This document shows, one piece after another, positions 2,007-32,007 of a stretch of 64,000 bases of DNA. Made by a program: the position numbers and the translations under genes. Under the pieces are notes generated by a model, which ran no database searches, had not been told where the DNA came from, and was given only the letters and a program-made list of their open reading frames with translations. The stretch's first letter is position 1. Each line of letters starts with the position of its first letter. This DNA comes from Escherichia coli. GTDB taxonomy: Bacteria > Pseudomonadota > Gammaproteobacteria > Enterobacterales > Enterobacteriaceae. The stretch is taken from NCBI RefSeq assembly GCF_002854065.1, contig NZ_CP024147.1, one strand, 5' to 3'.

Positions 2007-3026
<1,020 letters not shown>

Positions 3027-3045
3027 GCGCAAAGGAATTGAGCGG

Positions 3046-4314
3046 ATGTATGATTTTGTGATTATTGGCGGCGGCATCATCGGCATGTCGACCGCCATGC
3101 AACTGATTGATGTCTACCCGGACGCCCGCATTGCGTTGCTGGAAAAAGAGTCCGGCCCGGCCTGTCACCAGACGGGCCACAACAGCGGCGTGATCCATGC
3201 CGGGGTTTATTACACGCCCGGCAGTCTGAAGGCGCAGTTTTGCCTGGCGGGAAACCGCGCCACCAAAGCCTTTTGCGATCAAAACGGCATTCGCTACGAC
3301 AACTGCGGCAAGATGCTGGTCGCCACGTCTGAACTCGAAATGGAACGGATGCGCGCCTTATGGGAACGCACGGCGGCGAACGGCATCGAGCGCGAGTGGT
3401 TAAACGCCGATGAACTGCGCGAGCGCGAACCGAATATCACCGGGCTTGGCGGTATTTTTGTGCCGTCCAGCGGCATTGTCAGCTACCGCGAAGTCACGGC
3501 GGCGATGGCAAAAATCTTCCAGGCCAGAGGCGGCGAGATTATCTATAACGCCGAAGTCAGCGCCCTCAGTGAGCATAAAAACGGCGTGGTGATACGTACC
3601 CGTCAGGGCGGTGAATATGAAGCATCGACGCTGATTAGCTGCTCCGGGCTGATGGCTGACCGGCTGGTGAAAATGCTCGGCCTCGAACCGGGCTTTATTA
3701 TCTGCCCGTTCCGTGGCGAGTATTTCCGCCTGGCGCCGGAGCATAACCAGATTGTTAACCATCTGATTTACCCCATTCCCGATCCGGCAATGCCGTTTTT
3801 GGGCGTTCATCTCACCCGCATGATCGACGGTAGCGTCACCGTTGGGCCAAACGCAGTGCTGGCGTTCAAACGCGAAGGCTATCGCAAGCGCGACTTCTCA
3901 TTTAGCGACACGCTGGAGATTTTAGGCTCGTCGGGGATTCGCCGGGTGCTGCAAAACCATCTACGCTCAGGACTGGGCGAGATGAAAAACTCGCTGTGCA
4001 AAAGCGGCTATCTGCGGCTGGTGCAAAAGTATTGTCCCCGGCTTTCGTTAAGCGATCTCCAGCCCTGGCCCGCCGGTGTGCGGGCGCAGGCGGTATCGCC
4101 GGACGGCAAGCTGATTGACGATTTTCTGTTTGTCACCACCCCGCGCACGATCCACACCTGCAATGCGCCCTCCCCGGCAGCGACATCAGCAATTCCTATT
4201 GGTGCGCATATTGTCAGCAAGGTACAAACGCTGTTGGCAAGCCAGAGTAACCCCGGACGCACGCTGCGAGCGGCACGTAGTGTGGATGCCTTACACGCCG
4301 CATTTAATCAATAA
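3046..4314 (+). CDS. lhgO: L-2-hydroxyglutarate oxidase/dehydrogenase (YgaF)
   Basis: Starts MYDFVIIGGGIIGMSTAMQL (FAD-binding GxGxxG); ORF track start at 2980 is an upstream extension overlapping csiD. Confidence 0.93.
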   Translation: MYDFVIIGGGIIGMSTAMQLIDVYPDARIALLEKESGPACHQTGHNSGVIHAGVYYTPGSLKAQFCLAGNRATKAFCDQNGIRYDNCGKMLVATSELEMERMRALWERTAANGIEREWLNADELREREPNITGLGGIFVPSSGIVSYREVTAAMAKIFQARGGEIIYNAEVSALSEHKNGVVIRTRQGGEYEASTLISCSGLMADRLVKMLGLEPGFIICPFRGEYFRLAPEHNQIVNHLIYPIPDPAMPFLGVHLTRMIDGSVTVGPNAVLAFKREGYRKRDFSFSDTLEILGSSGIRRVLQNHLRSGLGEMKNSLCKSGYLRLVQKYCPRLSLSDLQPWPAGVRAQAVSPDGKLIDDFLFVTTPRTIHTCNAPSPAATSAIPIGAHIVSKVQTLLASQSNPGRTLRAARSVDALHAAFNQ

Positions 4315-22339: not shown

Positions 22340-23332
22340 ATGCGACATAGCGTACTTTTTGCGACAGCGTTTGCCACGCTTATCTCTACACAAACTTTTG
22401 CTGCCGATCTGCCGGGCAAAGGCATTACTGTTAATCCAGTTCAAAGCACCATCACCGAAGAAACCTTCCAGACACTGCTGGTCAGTCGTGCGCTGGAGAA
22501 ATTAGGTTATACCGTCAATAAACCCAGCGAAGTGGATTACAACGTTGGCTACACCTCGCTTGCTTCCGGCGATGCAACCTTCACCGCCGTGAACTGGACG
22601 CCACTGCATGACAACATGTACGAAGCTGCCGGTGGCGATAAGAAATTTTATCGTGAAGGGGTATTTGTTAACGGCGCGGCACAGGGTTACCTGATCGATA
22701 AGAAAACCGCCGACCAGTACAAAATCACCAACATCGCACAACTAAAAGATCCGAAGATCGCCAAACTGTTCGATACCAACGGCGACGGTAAAGCGGATTT
22801 GACTGGCTGTAACCCTGGCTGGGGCTGCGAAGGTGCGATCAACCACCAGCTTGCCGCGTATGAACTGACCAATACCGTGACGCATAATCAGGGGAACTAC
22901 GCGGCGATGATGGCTGACACCATCAGTCGTTACAAAGAGGGCAAACCGGTGTTTTACTACACCTGGACGCCGTACTGGGTGAGTAATGAGCTGAAGCCAG
23001 GGAAAGATGTGGTCTGGTTGCAGGTGCCGTTCTCTGCACTGCCGGGCGATAAAAATGCCGATACCAAACTGCCGAATGGCGCGAATTACGGCTTCCCGGT
23101 CAGCACCATGCATATCGTTGCCAATAAAGCCTGGGCCGAGAAAAACCCGGCAGCAGCGAAACTGTTTGCCATTATGCAGTTGCCAGTGGCAGATATTAAC
23201 GCCCAGAACGCCATTATGCATGACGGCAAAGCCTCAGAAGGCGATATTCAGGGCCACGTTGATGGCTGGATCAAAGCCCACCAGCAACAGTTCGATGGCT
23301 GGGTGAATGAGGCGTTGGCAGCGCAGAAGTAA
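22340..23332 (+). CDS. proX: Glycine betaine-binding periplasmic protein
   Basis: Starts [21 protein letters not shown] (signal peptide); ORF track start 22292 is an upstream extension. Confidence 0.94.
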
Positions 23333-23339
23333 TTTTTAT

Positions 23340-23425
<86 letters not shown>

Positions 23426-23523
23426 CCACACCGCACATTTCAACAATCTATCTTTCATCCCATATTCATCAACATCCGCTATTATTGATTTCCAGCTTAA
23501 TCATCACCTGATGAACAAAAATA

Positions 23524-24708
23524 ATGACTAAACCTAATCATGAGCTTAGCCCGGCGCTGATCGTGCTGATGTCTATCGCCACCGGTCTGGCGGTAGCCAG
23601 TAACTATTACGCCCAGCCATTGCTCGACACCATCGCGCGTAACTTTTCCCTTTCCGCCAGTTCGGCAGGCTTTATTGTTACCGCCGCGCAGTTGGGCTAT
23701 GCCGCAGGTCTACTGTTTCTTGTTCCCCTCGGTGATATGTTTGAACGCCGCCGCCTGATTGTCTCGATGACCTTACTGGCAGCGGGCGGTATGTTAATCA
23801 CTGCCAGCAGTCAGTCACTGGCGATGATGATCCTCGGTACGGCATTAACCGGTTTATTCTCAGTCGTGGCACAAATTCTGGTTCCGCTGGCAGCGACGCT
23901 GGCTTCACCGGATAAACGCGGCAAAGTGGTTGGCACCATTATGAGCGGTCTGCTGTTGGGGATATTGCTGGCACGAACCGTTGCCGGGTTACTGGCAAAC
24001 CTCGGCGGCTGGCGCACCGTCTTTTGGGTTGCCTCGGTGTTAATGGCTCTGATGGCGCTGGCATTATGGCGTGGTCTGCCACAAATGAAATCAGAAACCC
24101 ACCTCAACTACCCACAGTTGTTGGGTTCCGTTTTCAGCATGTTTATCAACGATAAGATCCTGCGCACCCGCGCGTTGCTGGGCTGCCTGACCTTTGCCAA
24201 CTTCAGCATTCTCTGGACCTCAATGGCCTTTTTGCTTGCCGCCCCACCTTTTAACTACAGCGATGGTGTCATTGGTCTGTTTGGGCTTGCGGGAGCTGCC
24301 GGAGCGTTGGGCGCTCGTCCGGCGGGCGGTTTTGCCGACAAGGGCAAATCGCACCACACAACAACTTTCGGTCTGCTTCTGCTGTTACTTTCATGGCTGG
24401 CAATCTGGTTTGGTCACACTTCCGTACTGGCGCTGATTATCGGCATCCTGGTGCTGGACCTCACCGTGCAGGGCGTGCATATCACTAACCAGACGGTAAT
24501 TTATCGAATACATCCTGATGCGCGTAATCGCCTGACCGCAGGTTACATGACCAGCTACTTTATTGGCGGTGCCGCCGGATCGCTAATTTCAGCCTCAGCC
24601 TGGCAACATGGCGGTTGGGCTGGCGTTTGTCTGGCTGGCGCGACGATTGCCCTGGTTAACTTACTGGTCTGGTGGCGAGGTTTTCATCGTCAGGAAGCCG
24701 CAAATTAA
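23524..24708 (+). CDS. ygaY: MFS transporter YgaY (intact here)
   Basis: 394-aa uninterrupted ORF with 12-TM-like hydrophobic pattern. Confidence 0.85.
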   Translation: MTKPNHELSPALIVLMSIATGLAVASNYYAQPLLDTIARNFSLSASSAGFIVTAAQLGYAAGLLFLVPLGDMFERRRLIVSMTLLAAGGMLITASSQSLAMMILGTALTGLFSVVAQILVPLAATLASPDKRGKVVGTIMSGLLLGILLARTVAGLLANLGGWRTVFWVASVLMALMALALWRGLPQMKSETHLNYPQLLGSVFSMFINDKILRTRALLGCLTFANFSILWTSMAFLLAAPPFNYSDGVIGLFGLAGAAGALGARPAGGFADKGKSHHTTTFGLLLLLLSWLAIWFGHTSVLALIIGILVLDLTVQGVHITNQTVIYRIHPDARNRLTAGYMTSYFIGGAAGSLISASAWQHGGWAGVCLAGATIALVNLLVWWRGFHRQEAAN

Positions 24709-24831
24709 GCAATCAGCAACCGTTTTCGTGGCTTTACACTTATAAGGGTGTTAAGAAGCCCATCAGTCTGATAAGGTTAAGATATTCATTCAGTCTATTT
24801 ATAATATTAACAATCGTTAAGCGTACACTCT

Positions 24832-25569
24832 ATGGAAAGCCCTACTCCACAGCCTGCTCCTGGTTCGGCGACCTTCATGGAAGGATGCAAAGACAGTTTA
24901 CCGATTGTTATTAGTTATATTCCGGTGGCCTTTGCGTTCGGTCTGAATGCGACCCGTCTGGGATTCTCTCCTCTCGAAAGCGTTTTTTTCTCCTGCATCA
25001 TTTATGCAGGCGCGAGCCAGTTCGTCATTACCGCGATGCTGGCAGCAGGGAGTAGTTTGTGGGTTGCTGCACTGACCGTCATGGCAATGGATGTTCGCCA
25101 TGTTTTGTATGGCCCGTCACTGCGTAGCCGTATTATTCAGCGTCTGCAAAAATCGAAAACCGCCCTATGGGCGTTTGGCCTGACGGATGAGGTTTTTGCC
25201 GCCGCCACCGCAAAACTGGTACGCAATAATCGCCGCTGGAGCGAGAACTGGATGATCGGCATTGCCTTCAGTTCATGGTCATCGTGGGTCTTTGGTACGG
25301 TAATAGGGGCATTCTCCGGCAGCGGCTTGCTGCAAGGTTATCCCGCCGTTGAAGCAGCATTAGGTTTTATGCTTCCGGCACTCTTTATGAGTTTCCTGCT
25401 CGCCTCTTTCCAGCGCAAACAATCTCTTTGCGTTACCGCAGCGTTAGTTGGTGCCCTTGCAGGCGTAACGCTATTTTCTATTCCCGTCGCCATTCTGGCA
25501 GGCATTGTCTGTGGCTGCCTCACTGCGTTAATCCAGGCATTCTGGCAAGGAGCGCCCGATGAGCTATGA
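24832..25569 (+). CDS. ygaZ: Branched-chain amino acid (valine) exporter subunit, AzlC family
   Basis: 245-aa membrane [34 protein letters not shown]... Confidence 0.93.
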
Positions 25570-29626: not shown

Positions 29627-30334
29627 ATGAATACCCAACTTAAATACGGGAGAACCTGGCATTATCCTTTCTCCCCCGGCACCACCAGCGATGACCGCAT
29701 TAACGCCGATTACTGGCAGGATTTACAGGCCATCGCGCAACTGGTGCATACAGAAAAACTCGACGGCGAAAATAACTGCCTTAACCGCTACGGTGTGTTT
29801 GCCCGTTCCCATGCCGCGCCTACGCAGTCGGCATGGACCTATAAAATTCGCCAGCGTTGGCAACTGCTGAAAAACGATCTCGGCGACCTGGAGTTGTTTG
29901 GCGAAAATCTCTACGCCGTTCATTCCATTGAATACCGCGCGCTGGAACAGGACTTTTACCTGTTTGCCGTTCGCTGCCAGGATATGTGGCTGAGCTGGGA
30001 AGAGGTGCAGTTTTACGCCGCCCTGTTTGATTTCCCCTGCGTTCCCGAAATCTCCGGCCCGCAGCCGGGGAATGATGAAAAAAGCTGGCAACGTGATTTT
30101 CTGGCACTGACCAATGCGCGCGGCGCGTTCGATCCCTGGGATACACAAACCGGGCAACCCTGTACTCTGGAAGGCATTGTCAGCCGGAATCGTGATGCGT
30201 TTTCCGTCGCTGACTTTTCGCATAACGTCTTCAAGTATGTGCGCAAAAATCATGTCAAAACCACTGTGCACTGGAAACGACACTGGCAACGGGCGCGGAT
30301 GGCCCATGAGTTCGCTTATGGAGAACAGTCATGA
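29627..30334 (+). CDS. ATP-dependent RNA ligase-like nucleotidyltransferase (Rnl2-type catalytic domain only)
   Basis: 235-aa ORF with covalent nucleotidyltransferase motifs in canonical order and spacing: motif I EKLDGEN, motif [12 protein letters not shown], motif IV LEGIVSR, motif V FKYVRK. Confidence 0.75.
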
Positions 30335-31443
30335 TTTGGCAGCTTACCGACGATAAACGCTGGTCGACACTACGCCAGCGTTTCAGTTGGGTTGAGGAGA
30401 TGCATCACACGCCACAAGACCCGGAGCATCATGGTGAAGGTGACGTCGGCGTGCATACCGAAATGGTGCTTAACGCCCTTGTTACTCAGCCAGAATTCCA
30501 GCAACTCCCCGCTCAACAGCAGGAAGTTTTATGGGCGGCGGCGTTATTACATGATGTTGAAAAGCGCAGCACTACCGTGCAGGAAAACGGACGTATTCAG
30601 TCGCCGGGCCATGCTCGTCGGGGCGAACTGACGGCCCGGCTGATTTTGTGGCGCGATATCCCAACGCCGTTCGTGCTGCGCGAGCAAATCGTTGCGCTGG
30701 TGCGTCTGCATGGGTTACCGCTATGGTTACTGGAACGTCCGGAACCGGAGCGTTTGTTGCTCACGGCTGCAATGCGCATCGACACGCGTCTGCTCACTTT
30801 GCTTGCTCGTGCCGATCTGCTTGGTCGCCAAAGCCCGGATCAGCAATCAATGCTGGAACGCATCGATCTGTTCGAGCTGTTTTGCCAGGAGCAACAGTGT
30901 TGGGGAAAAGTGCGCTCGTTCGTGTCTGATTCCGCACGCTGGCATTACCTGACCCATGAGCAAAGTTCTCCTGATTTTGTTCCCTGGGAGGCTGAACCTT
31001 TTGAGGGCATTTTGCTGTGTGGCTTACCGGGTATGGGCAAAGATCGCTATATCAATGAACAGTGCCAGGGAATGGACGTTATCAGCCTTGATGATATGCG
31101 GCGGCGAATCAATGCCAATCCGGACGACAAAACCGCCACCGGGCGTATTGTGCAACAGGCAAAAGAAGAGGCACGCGTTTTTTTACGCCAGAAAAAGCCG
31201 TTCATCTGGAATGCAACGAACTTTACCCGCCAGCTTCGTAGCCAGCTCATCAGCCTGTTTACGGCTTACGGCGCACGAGTAAAAATAGTTTATCTTGAAG
31301 TGCCATGGGCGCAATGGAAGCAGCAAAATGCCAGACGCGAGTATGCAGTTCCTGAAGCGGTCGTGATGCGGATGGCCTCAAGGCTGGAAGTTCCTCAACC
31401 TGATGAAGCACATAGCGTGGAGTATCGGGTGATTGAAAGGTAA
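30331..31443 (+). CDS. Bifunctional HD-domain phosphoesterase / 5'-OH polynucleotide kinase (HD-Pnk architecture)
   Basis: 370-aa ORF; N-terminal HD metal-ligand pattern ([18 protein letters not shown], further His and Asp); C-terminal P-loop GLPGMGKD followed by [17 protein letters not shown] and [16 protein letters not shown], resembling the T4 Pnk kinase domain; start overlaps upstream stop (ATGA). Confidence 0.75.
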
Positions 31444-31491: not shown

Positions 31492-32007
31492 CTAAATGTG
31501 CAGTTCCTGCAACTTCTCTTTCGGCAGCGCCAGTTCTTCGTTGCTGTTGATGCGCACGTCACGTTCCAGAATGCTACGCGCAATATCCTGCGCTTCCTGC
31601 AACGAGTGCATCTGGTAAGTGCCACACTGGTAGACGTTCAGTTCCGGGATCTGATTCTGATCCTGCACTTTCAGCACGTCTTCCATTGCCGCTTTCCAGG
31701 CATCAGCAACACGCTGCTCATCTGGCGTACCAATCAGACTCATATAAAAACCGGTGCGGCAGCCCATTGGCGAGATATCGATAATCTCTACACCATTACC
31801 GTTAAGATGGTTACGCATAAAACCAGCAAACAGGTGCTCCAGGGTATGGATCCCTCTTTCTGGCATCACTTCTTTGTTCGGCACGCAGAAGCGCAGATCG
31901 AACACGGTGATTGCGTCGCCATGCGGGGTGTTCATTGTTTTCGCCACCCGAACTGCAGGCGCTTCCATCCGGGTATGATCGACTGTGAAGCTATCTAACA
32001 ACGGCAT
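31492..32007 (-). CDS. luxS: S-ribosylhomocysteine lyase (autoinducer-2 synthase)
   Basis: 171-aa [34 protein letters not shown]... Confidence 0.97.

What the first reader, a model, noticed from the sequence alone, without database searches (positions are those of the whole stretch)
23524..24708. ygaY appears intact
The MFS transporter gene is a single uninterrupted 394-aa frame here, whereas I recall it annotated as a disrupted pseudogene in K-12. This supports the window coming from a non-K-12 lineage and offers an intact version for functional study.
Basis: partly seen in the sequence, partly recalled or inferred. Interest (0 to 1): 0.25.

Follow-up and report, generated by a model that had tools for sequence, protein, structure and literature searches.

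The report
Intact ygaY transporter gene, broken in K-12
This E. coli window carries the normal, intact form of the membrane-transporter gene ygaY, which is broken only in the laboratory strain K-12 by loss of one copy of a 7-base tandem repeat. The finding is correct but ordinary and already reflected in public annotation.

Summary
Window 23524..24708 (+) is one 394-codon frame encoding a Major Facilitator Superfamily protein (Pfam MFS_1, 1e-40). It lies in the E. coli context proVWX–ygaY–ygaZH–emrR(mprA)–emrAB.

K-12 MG1655 annotates ygaY (b2681) as a 1178-bp pseudogene. The lesion is a 7-bp deletion in codons 86-90, inside TM3, and translation stops after 88 residues. E. coli C carries a perfect tandem repeat, GCGGCAT·GCGGCAT, at that site. 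Removing one copy reproduces K-12 with one other difference in 1178 nt.

- The progenitor tract occurs in 684 of 5426 complete genomes.
- The K-12 junction occurs in 353 genomes, and all 60 sampled are K-12 laboratory derivatives.
- In a systematic sample of 60 genomes, 55 have exactly 1185 bp.
- dN/dS among intact alleles is 0.008–0.06, so the gene is under strong constraint.

The intact frame is therefore the ancestral, usual state. The protein resembles DHA1 exporters and belongs to TCDB family 2.A.1.36 (YnfM). Its substrate is unknown. Already known; low interest.

The parts
23524..24708 (+). ygaY coding sequence, intact, 394 aa plus stop. It encodes a 12-TM Major Facilitator Superfamily transporter (TCDB 2.A.1.36.3, YnfM family).
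   Evidence: ORF. Pfam MFS_1 140 bits against a cut-off of 33.4. Identical CDS annotated in strain 100416. Full-length alignment to YnfM. Model matches SotB at TM-score 0.84.
23779..23793 (+). Tract homologous to the K-12 lesion site (CDS nt 256-270, codons 86-90, inside TM3). Here it reads GCAGCGGGCGGTATG, which is not a perfect repeat. In the K-12 progenitor allele it reads GCGGCATGCGGCATG, and K-12 has lost one 7-nt copy.
   Evidence: Pairwise alignment with K-12. Allele comparison. Deleting one copy from the E. coli C allele reproduces K-12. Tract comparison.
23731..23754 (+). MFS motif A (G70-D71-M-F-E-R75-R76-R77) in the cytoplasmic loop between TM2 and TM3, immediately upstream of the K-12 lesion site.
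   Evidence: Motif search on the translated sequence. D71 and R75 are invariant in the alignment that includes YnfM.
23333..23523 (+). proX-ygaY intergenic region. The 100 nt before the ATG are identical in the window, K-12 and O157:H7. No consensus sigma-70 promoter was detected.
   Evidence: Alignment A2. Promoter scan.
23342..23419 (+). REP/BIME palindromic element in the proX-ygaY spacer (matches Rfam naRNA4). Its copy number varies between strains.
   Evidence: Rfam RF02564, 76.4 bits against a gathering score of 59.5. REL606 has a 100-bp extra copy.
22340..23332 (+). proX, the upstream neighbour and last gene of proVWX.
   Evidence: ORF. Annotation of the identical locus in strain 100416.
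24832..25569 (+). ygaZ, the downstream neighbour (L-valine exporter subunit). A promoter-like site lies at 24777..24805.
   Evidence: ORF. Annotation. Promoter-like TTAAGA-17-TATAAT.

Best explanation
The window carries the ancestral, functional allele of ygaY, a chromosomal core gene of E. coli that encodes a 12-helix Major Facilitator Superfamily secondary transporter of the YnfM family (TCDB 2.A.1.36). The K-12 pseudogene is a derived lesion private to that lineage. The K-12 progenitor allele, still present in E. coli C and about 13% of complete genomes, contains a perfect tandem repeat, GCGGCAT-GCGGCAT, in codons 86-90. Loss of one copy, most likely by replication slippage, shifts the frame inside TM3 just after motif A and ends translation at residue 88. 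Shown here: the intact frame, the exact lesion, its restriction to K-12 derivatives in the sample, and strong purifying selection on intact alleles. Inferred: the protein works as a proton-coupled alternating-access carrier. Export of a small organic metabolite or toxic compound is more likely than uptake, because its nearest relatives by sequence and fold are DHA1-type exporters. The substrate is unknown.
For: There is a single 394-aa ORF, matching MFS_1 at 1.1e-40. K-12 ygaY is annotated as a pseudogene of 1178 bp. A 7-nt gap is the only indel against K-12, and 34 of the other 35 differences are synonymous. Deleting one GCGGCAT from the E. coli C allele reproduces K-12 with one other difference in 1178 nt. 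The exact progenitor 67-mer is in 684 of 5426 genomes. The K-12 junction 60-mer is in 353 of 5426, and all 60 listed are K-12 laboratory derivatives such as MG1655, BW25113, C600, J53, JM109, TG1, MC4100 and EPI300. In a systematic sample of 60 genomes, 55 span exactly 1185 bp, 4 span 1178 bp (all K-12) and 1 has a large deletion. Six inspected natural alleles are annotated intact. dN/dS is 0.008-0.06. Intact 394-aa orthologues at 93% identity or more occur in Shigella, E. fergusonii, E. marmotae, E. albertii and Citrobacter. YgaY aligns over its full length with YnfM at 26% identity, E 1e-20, and TCDB lists it as 2.A.1.36.3 (PMC5417439). The AF2 model (pTM 0.74) matches SotB, MdfA and NorA at TM-scores 0.75-0.84. 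Motif A is present.
Against: Nothing contradicts the intact-versus-K-12 result. Several limits apply. The census of K-12-junction genomes rests on 60 listed names out of 353, so a wild isolate carrying the deletion cannot be excluded. Nonsense mutations in non-K-12 genomes were not surveyed beyond six alleles. On function, no NCBIfam equivalog reaches its cut-off. The DHA antiporter motif C (G-x-x-x-G-P-x-x-G-G in TM5) is absent, and the protein has no GP dipeptide at all. The model is only moderately confident, with mean pLDDT 69 and four of five models below 45. No consensus promoter or obvious Shine-Dalgarno sequence was found upstream. No paper in the searched library reports a substrate or phenotype.
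Confidence: 0.95

Rival explanations
1. Intact YgaY is an uptake carrier (a proton symporter for a nutrient or osmoprotectant) rather than an exporter.
For: Antiporter motif C is absent. The best PDB sequence match is the glucose/H+ symporter GlcP, though only over the N-terminal half (E 4e-8). The top NCBIfam subfamily hit is aromatic acid/H+ symport, far below its cut-off. The gene sits next to the osmoprotectant uptake operon proVWX.
Against: The full-length sequence and fold matches are to exporters: SotB, EmrD, MdfA, NorA and Cmx/CmrA, Bcr/CflA. In K-12, ygaY transcript levels were reported as largely insulated from proVWX osmoregulation.
Confidence: 0.3
2. The open frame is retained but the gene is not expressed or is functionally dispensable, a silent gene on its way to decay as in K-12.
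For: K-12 lost the gene without a known phenotype, and the locus is used as a neutral site. One wild isolate, PCP06021, has a deletion removing most of ygaY and all of ygaZ. No consensus promoter was found. H-NS has been reported at ygaY in K-12.
Against: dN/dS is 0.008-0.06 across divergent alleles with dS up to 0.18. The length is exactly 1185 bp in 55 of 56 non-K-12 genomes sampled. The protein is conserved at 93% identity in Citrobacter. Transcripts are detectable even in K-12.
Confidence: 0.05
3. The K-12 'pseudogene' is a sequencing or annotation artefact, so the difference from the window is not real.
For: None found.
Against: The identical 60-nt deletion junction occurs in 353 independently assembled genomes of K-12 derivatives. 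RefSeq flags it as a pseudogene or frameshift in both MG1655 and ET12567.
Confidence: 0.01

Closest known systems
E. coli K-12 ygaY (b2681; formerly split as ygaX/ygaY; UniProt P76628; TCDB 2.A.1.36.3)
   Same: It is the same gene at the same locus between proX and ygaZ. The 100 nt upstream of the start are identical. Outside the lesion there are 35 nucleotide differences and one amino-acid difference, N209S.
   Different: K-12 lacks 7 nt in codons 86-90, so its product stops at residue 88. The window allele is uninterrupted, and its sequence at that site is not a perfect tandem repeat.
E. coli YnfM (b1596), type member of the TCDB 2.A.1.36 'acriflavin-sensitivity' MFS family
   Same: The two align over their full length at 26% identity, E 1e-20. 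They share motif A residues D71 and R75, and R151, H319 and many glycines are invariant in the joint alignment.
   Different: It is a distant paralogue at another locus, with a divergent LysR-type regulator, ynfL. No regulator gene adjoins ygaY. Substrates of both proteins are unknown or poorly defined.
DHA1 drug/metabolite:H+ antiporters with solved structures (SotB 6kkk, MdfA 4zp0, NorA 8tth)
   Same: They share the 12-TM MFS fold. Foldseek gives TM-scores of 0.75-0.84 over about 385 columns, and phmmer matches SotB across residues 13-383.
   Different: Sequence identity is only 14-19%. YgaY lacks antiporter motif C. No NCBIfam equivalog threshold is reached.

Membership tests
Major Facilitator Superfamily (Pfam MFS_1, PF07690) | Profile-HMM score above the curated gathering threshold | tested here: met
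   140 bits against a cut-off of 33.4, E 1.1e-40.
Major Facilitator Superfamily (Pfam MFS_1, PF07690) | Twelve transmembrane helices in two six-helix bundles | tested here: met
   The model is all-helical with helices spanning the full length and superposes on 12-TM SotB at TM-score 0.84. A strict hydropathy threshold alone resolves 9 distinct segments, one of them listed twice as overlapping windows. Model confidence is moderate (pLDDT 69).
Major Facilitator Superfamily (Pfam MFS_1, PF07690) | Motif A (G-x-x-x-D-x-x-x-R-[RK]) in the TM2-TM3 loop | tested here: met
   G70-D71-MFE-R75-R76-R77, with a weaker second-half copy G268-G-F-A-D-K-G-K275.
TCDB 2.A.1.36 YnfM family | Significant full-length homology to YnfM and listing in the family | tested here: met
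   BLASTP gives 26% identity over 409 columns, E 1e-20. YgaY P76628 is cited as 2.A.1.36.3 in PMC5417439.
TCDB 2.A.1.36 YnfM family | Transport phenotype (acriflavine susceptibility or efflux) | not testable with these tools
   This requires expression and MIC or transport assays.
DHA1 drug:H+ antiporter family (TCDB 2.A.1.2) | Antiporter motif C (G-x-x-x-G-P-x-x-G-G) in TM5 | tested here: not met
   TM5 reads G142-LLL-G146-I-LL-A-R, and the protein contains no GP dipeptide.
DHA1 drug:H+ antiporter family (TCDB 2.A.1.2) | Match to a curated equivalog or subfamily model above its cut-off | tested here: not met
   The best hits are PRK03545 (SotB-like) at 65 bits against 401, Cmx/CmrA at 53 against 400, and Bcr/CflA at 51 against 201.
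Intact (non-pseudogene) ygaY allele | 1185-nt frame without the K-12 7-nt deletion or any in-frame stop | tested here: met

The most novel reading that the evidence does not exclude
YgaY is conserved under very strong purifying selection throughout Escherichia and Citrobacter, at a fixed position between proVWX and the exporter genes ygaZH and emrRAB. It may therefore have a specific physiological substrate, for example a metabolite or host- or environment-derived toxic compound, whose export or uptake has gone unnoticed because the reference strain K-12 lacks the gene. If so, restoring the missing 7 nt in MG1655 would uncover a phenotype.
Probability: 0.25. Interest if true: 0.3.

Novelty: already known. 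Interest (0 to 1): 0.07.

Why it matters
It matters little beyond book-keeping. It confirms that the window is from a wild, non-K-12 E. coli lineage, and it is a reminder that K-12 is not a complete reference for E. coli transporters. The modest new detail is the mechanism and origin of the K-12 lesion: loss of one copy of a perfect 7-nt tandem repeat that is still present in 684 natural-isolate genomes, E. coli C among them. That gives a one-step route to repair the K-12 gene for functional tests. The strong constraint (dN/dS at or below 0.06) suggests the uncharacterised transporter does something useful in nature.

Tried and rejected
- My first two guesses at the undeleted K-12 progenitor junction had no exact match in 5426 genomes; the best matches had 1 mismatch. 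One guess inserted the window's 7 nt and the other used the REL606-type GGCGGCA repeat. Fetching E. coli C gave the true progenitor tract.
- The promoter and terminator scan found no consensus sigma-70 promoter upstream of ygaY and no terminator downstream.
- NCBIfam gave no equivalog, so no substrate could be inferred.
- Three literature searches found ygaY only as a K-12 pseudogene, neutral integration site or control, as an H-NS contact point near proVWX, and as a TCDB entry. None reported a functional study.
- The homologue search listed only close relatives (93% identity or more), all named 'MFS transporter'. The alignment for structure prediction was therefore shallow and the model only moderately confident.
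- PADLOC gave nothing for the two genes of the neighbouring emrB-luxS insert.
- I rejected the idea that the window's intact frame might be a reversion or an artefact, because the intact form is the overwhelming majority state.

Full report
**Observation.** The window has one open reading frame at 23524..24708 on the + strand, with an ATG start and 394 codons plus a stop (sequence read). With the window's base composition (52% G+C), a run of 394 sense codons has a chance probability of about 3e-8. The flanking ORFs are proW, proX, ygaZ, ygaH and mprA/emrR. The same order is annotated in E. coli K-12 and in strain 100416: nrdEF, proVWX, ygaY, ygaZH, mprA/emrR, emrAB. The protein matches Pfam MFS_1 at 1.1e-40, 140 bits against a gathering score of 33.4.

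**Comparison with K-12.** NC_000913.3 annotates ygaY (b2681, 2808316..2809493) as a pseudogene of 1178 bp. Aligning the two sequences gives one indel, 7 nt missing in K-12, plus 35 substitutions. Of those, 34 are synonymous and one changes N209 to S. In K-12 the original frame ends after 88 residues ('...TLLAAC*') and then contains 14 stops. The remaining 305-318 codons continue in another frame.

**Nature and origin of the lesion.**
- REL606-type alleles read GGCGGCA-GGCGGCA at the site.
- E. coli C reads CTG-GCGGCAT-GCGGCAT-G, a perfect 7-nt tandem repeat covering CDS nt 256-270.
- Deleting one copy in any of nine equivalent registers reproduces the K-12 sequence, leaving a single other difference (nt 874) across 1178 nt.
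- The exact 67-nt progenitor sequence is present in 684 of 5426 complete E. coli genomes.
- The 60-nt K-12 deletion junction is present in 353 genomes.
- All 60 of those listed are K-12 laboratory strains or transconjugants made in them: MG1655, BW25113, BW2952/MC4100, C600, J53, JM109, TG1, RV308, EPI300, S17-1 and others.

From established knowledge, deletion of one unit of a short perfect tandem repeat is the typical outcome of replication slippage. The mechanism is inferred; the sequence relationship is shown. The window's own tract, GCAGCGG-GCGGTAT-G, is not a perfect repeat. My first two guesses at the progenitor junction had no exact match.

**How usual is the intact form?** The CDS matches 5418 of 5426 genomes, and 5413 of them over at least 80% of its length. 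In an evenly spaced sample of 60 records:
- 55 span exactly 1185 bp;
- 4 span 1178 bp, and all four are K-12 laboratory strains;
- 1 (PCP06021, seawater) retains only the first 158 nt.

The PCP06021 annotation shows a deletion running from ygaY through ygaZ into ygaH. Six natural alleles that I fetched are all annotated as intact 394-aa proteins and translate without stops: GN4554, 08-00022, REL606, O157:H7 NE1127, E22 and E. coli C. Nei-Gojobori estimates among the intact alleles give dS up to 0.18 with dN/dS of 0.008-0.06; one nearly identical pair (REL606 and GN4554) has dN = 0. That is strong purifying selection. The exact window protein is on record on 471 contigs, in a 90%-identity cluster of 3984 members. 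Intact 394-aa orthologues at 93-99% identity occur in Shigella, E. fergusonii, E. marmotae, E. albertii and Citrobacter, all named only 'MFS transporter'. The intact frame is thus the ancestral and usual state, and the K-12 condition is the exception.

**Lineage of the window.** A 24-kb stretch around the gene is 100% identical to strains CUWW06 (wastewater) and 100416 (human stool, Gambia). The next-best genomes are at 98.4-98.9% and include O145:H28 strains. For ygaY itself only two records reach 99% identity, O157:H7 is at 98.7% and K-12 at 96.5%.

**What the protein is and how it probably works.**
- Hydropathy analysis shows strongly hydrophobic segments throughout.
- MFS motif A is present as G70-D71-MFE-R75-R76-R77 between TM2 and TM3, with a weaker second-half counterpart at 268-275.
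- The K-12 deletion lies in TM3 (residues 78-96) just after motif A, so the K-12 product cannot form a carrier.
- YgaY aligns over its full length with K-12 YnfM at 26% identity, E 1e-20.
- PMC5417439 cites YgaY (P76628) as TCDB 2.A.1.36.3 in the YnfM family.
- By sequence, the solved structures matched are GlcP (N-terminal half only), a quinidine-resistance protein (N-terminal part only), EmrD (residues 13-308) and SotB (full length).
- An AlphaFold2 model from a shallow 9-sequence alignment is moderately confident, with pLDDT 69 and pTM 0.74.
- Foldseek places the model nearest the DHA1 exporters SotB (TM-score 0.84), MdfA and NorA, followed by VMAT2.

I infer a proton-coupled alternating-access carrier, with export somewhat more likely than uptake. 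Several points argue against filing it as a DHA1 member. No NCBIfam equivalog cut-off is reached. The antiporter motif C is absent, since the protein has no GP dipeptide at all. No experimental substrate was found in the searched literature. In those papers ygaY appears only in four roles: as a K-12 pseudogene control, as a neutral integration site, as a cryptic gene contacted by an H-NS bridge from the proVWX downstream regulatory element, and in a gene list.

**Regulatory surroundings.** The proX-ygaY spacer holds a REP/BIME element at 23342..23419, which matches Rfam naRNA4 at 76 bits. REL606 has a further 100-bp copy. The last 100 nt before the start codon are identical in the window, K-12 and O157:H7. 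No consensus sigma-70 promoter was found upstream of ygaY. A promoter-like site at 24777..24805 precedes ygaZ.

**Verdict.** The finding is ordinary and already reflected in public annotation and the literature. The only added value is the precise description of the K-12 lesion and its progenitor allele, together with the evidence that the intact gene is under strong constraint. Interest is low, and the novelty class is 'already known'.

Noticed in passing
window 29627..31443 (+): Two overlapping genes lie between emrB (ends 29369) and luxS (31492..32007, - strand). One is a 235-aa RNA ligase family protein (PF09414, 3.7e-28). The other is a 370-aa protein with a C-terminal AAA_33 kinase-like domain (PF13671, 1.2e-31). 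K-12 has only about 64 bp between emrB and luxS, so this is a roughly 2.1-kb insert absent from K-12. It looks like an RNA-repair-type ligase plus polynucleotide-kinase pair. It has no PADLOC match.
   Followed up: partly
window 23342..23419: A REP/BIME palindromic element in the proX-ygaY spacer scores above the Rfam gathering threshold for naRNA4 (76.4 bits). REL606 has a 100-bp extra tandem copy. Four other genomes in the sample, E24377A among them, match in two pieces with a span about 99 bp longer, which was not inspected. Some strains lack the first ~97 bases of the query, i.e. the left part of the spacer.
   Followed up: partly
L009 (NZ_CM129877.1, strain PCP06021) 3001..3463: A seawater isolate from Galapagos has a deletion joining the first 158 nt of ygaY to ygaH. 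It removes most of ygaY and all of ygaZ, so it is an independent natural loss of the gene.
   Followed up: partly
P0016 (ENA metagenome protein, 596 aa): The top hit of the homologue search is a 596-aa protein that scores 1093 bits, more than a self-match, at 73% identity. This suggests a partial tandem duplication or an assembly artefact of ygaY on a 5.4-kb contig.
   Followed up: no
window 23790..23802 and homologous positions in L001, L006, L008, L011: The synonymous variants just downstream of the lesion site are shared in a patchwork. K-12, E. coli C and E22 read TTGATTACC, while the window, O157 and REL606 read TTAATCACT. This does not follow overall allele similarity and hints at intragenic recombination within ygaY.
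   Followed up: no
window 24777..24805 (+): A promoter-like site (TTAAGA, 17-nt spacer, TATAAT; 10 of 12 matches) lies 27 nt upstream of the ygaZ start. This is consistent with ygaZH being transcribed separately from ygaY.
   Followed up: no
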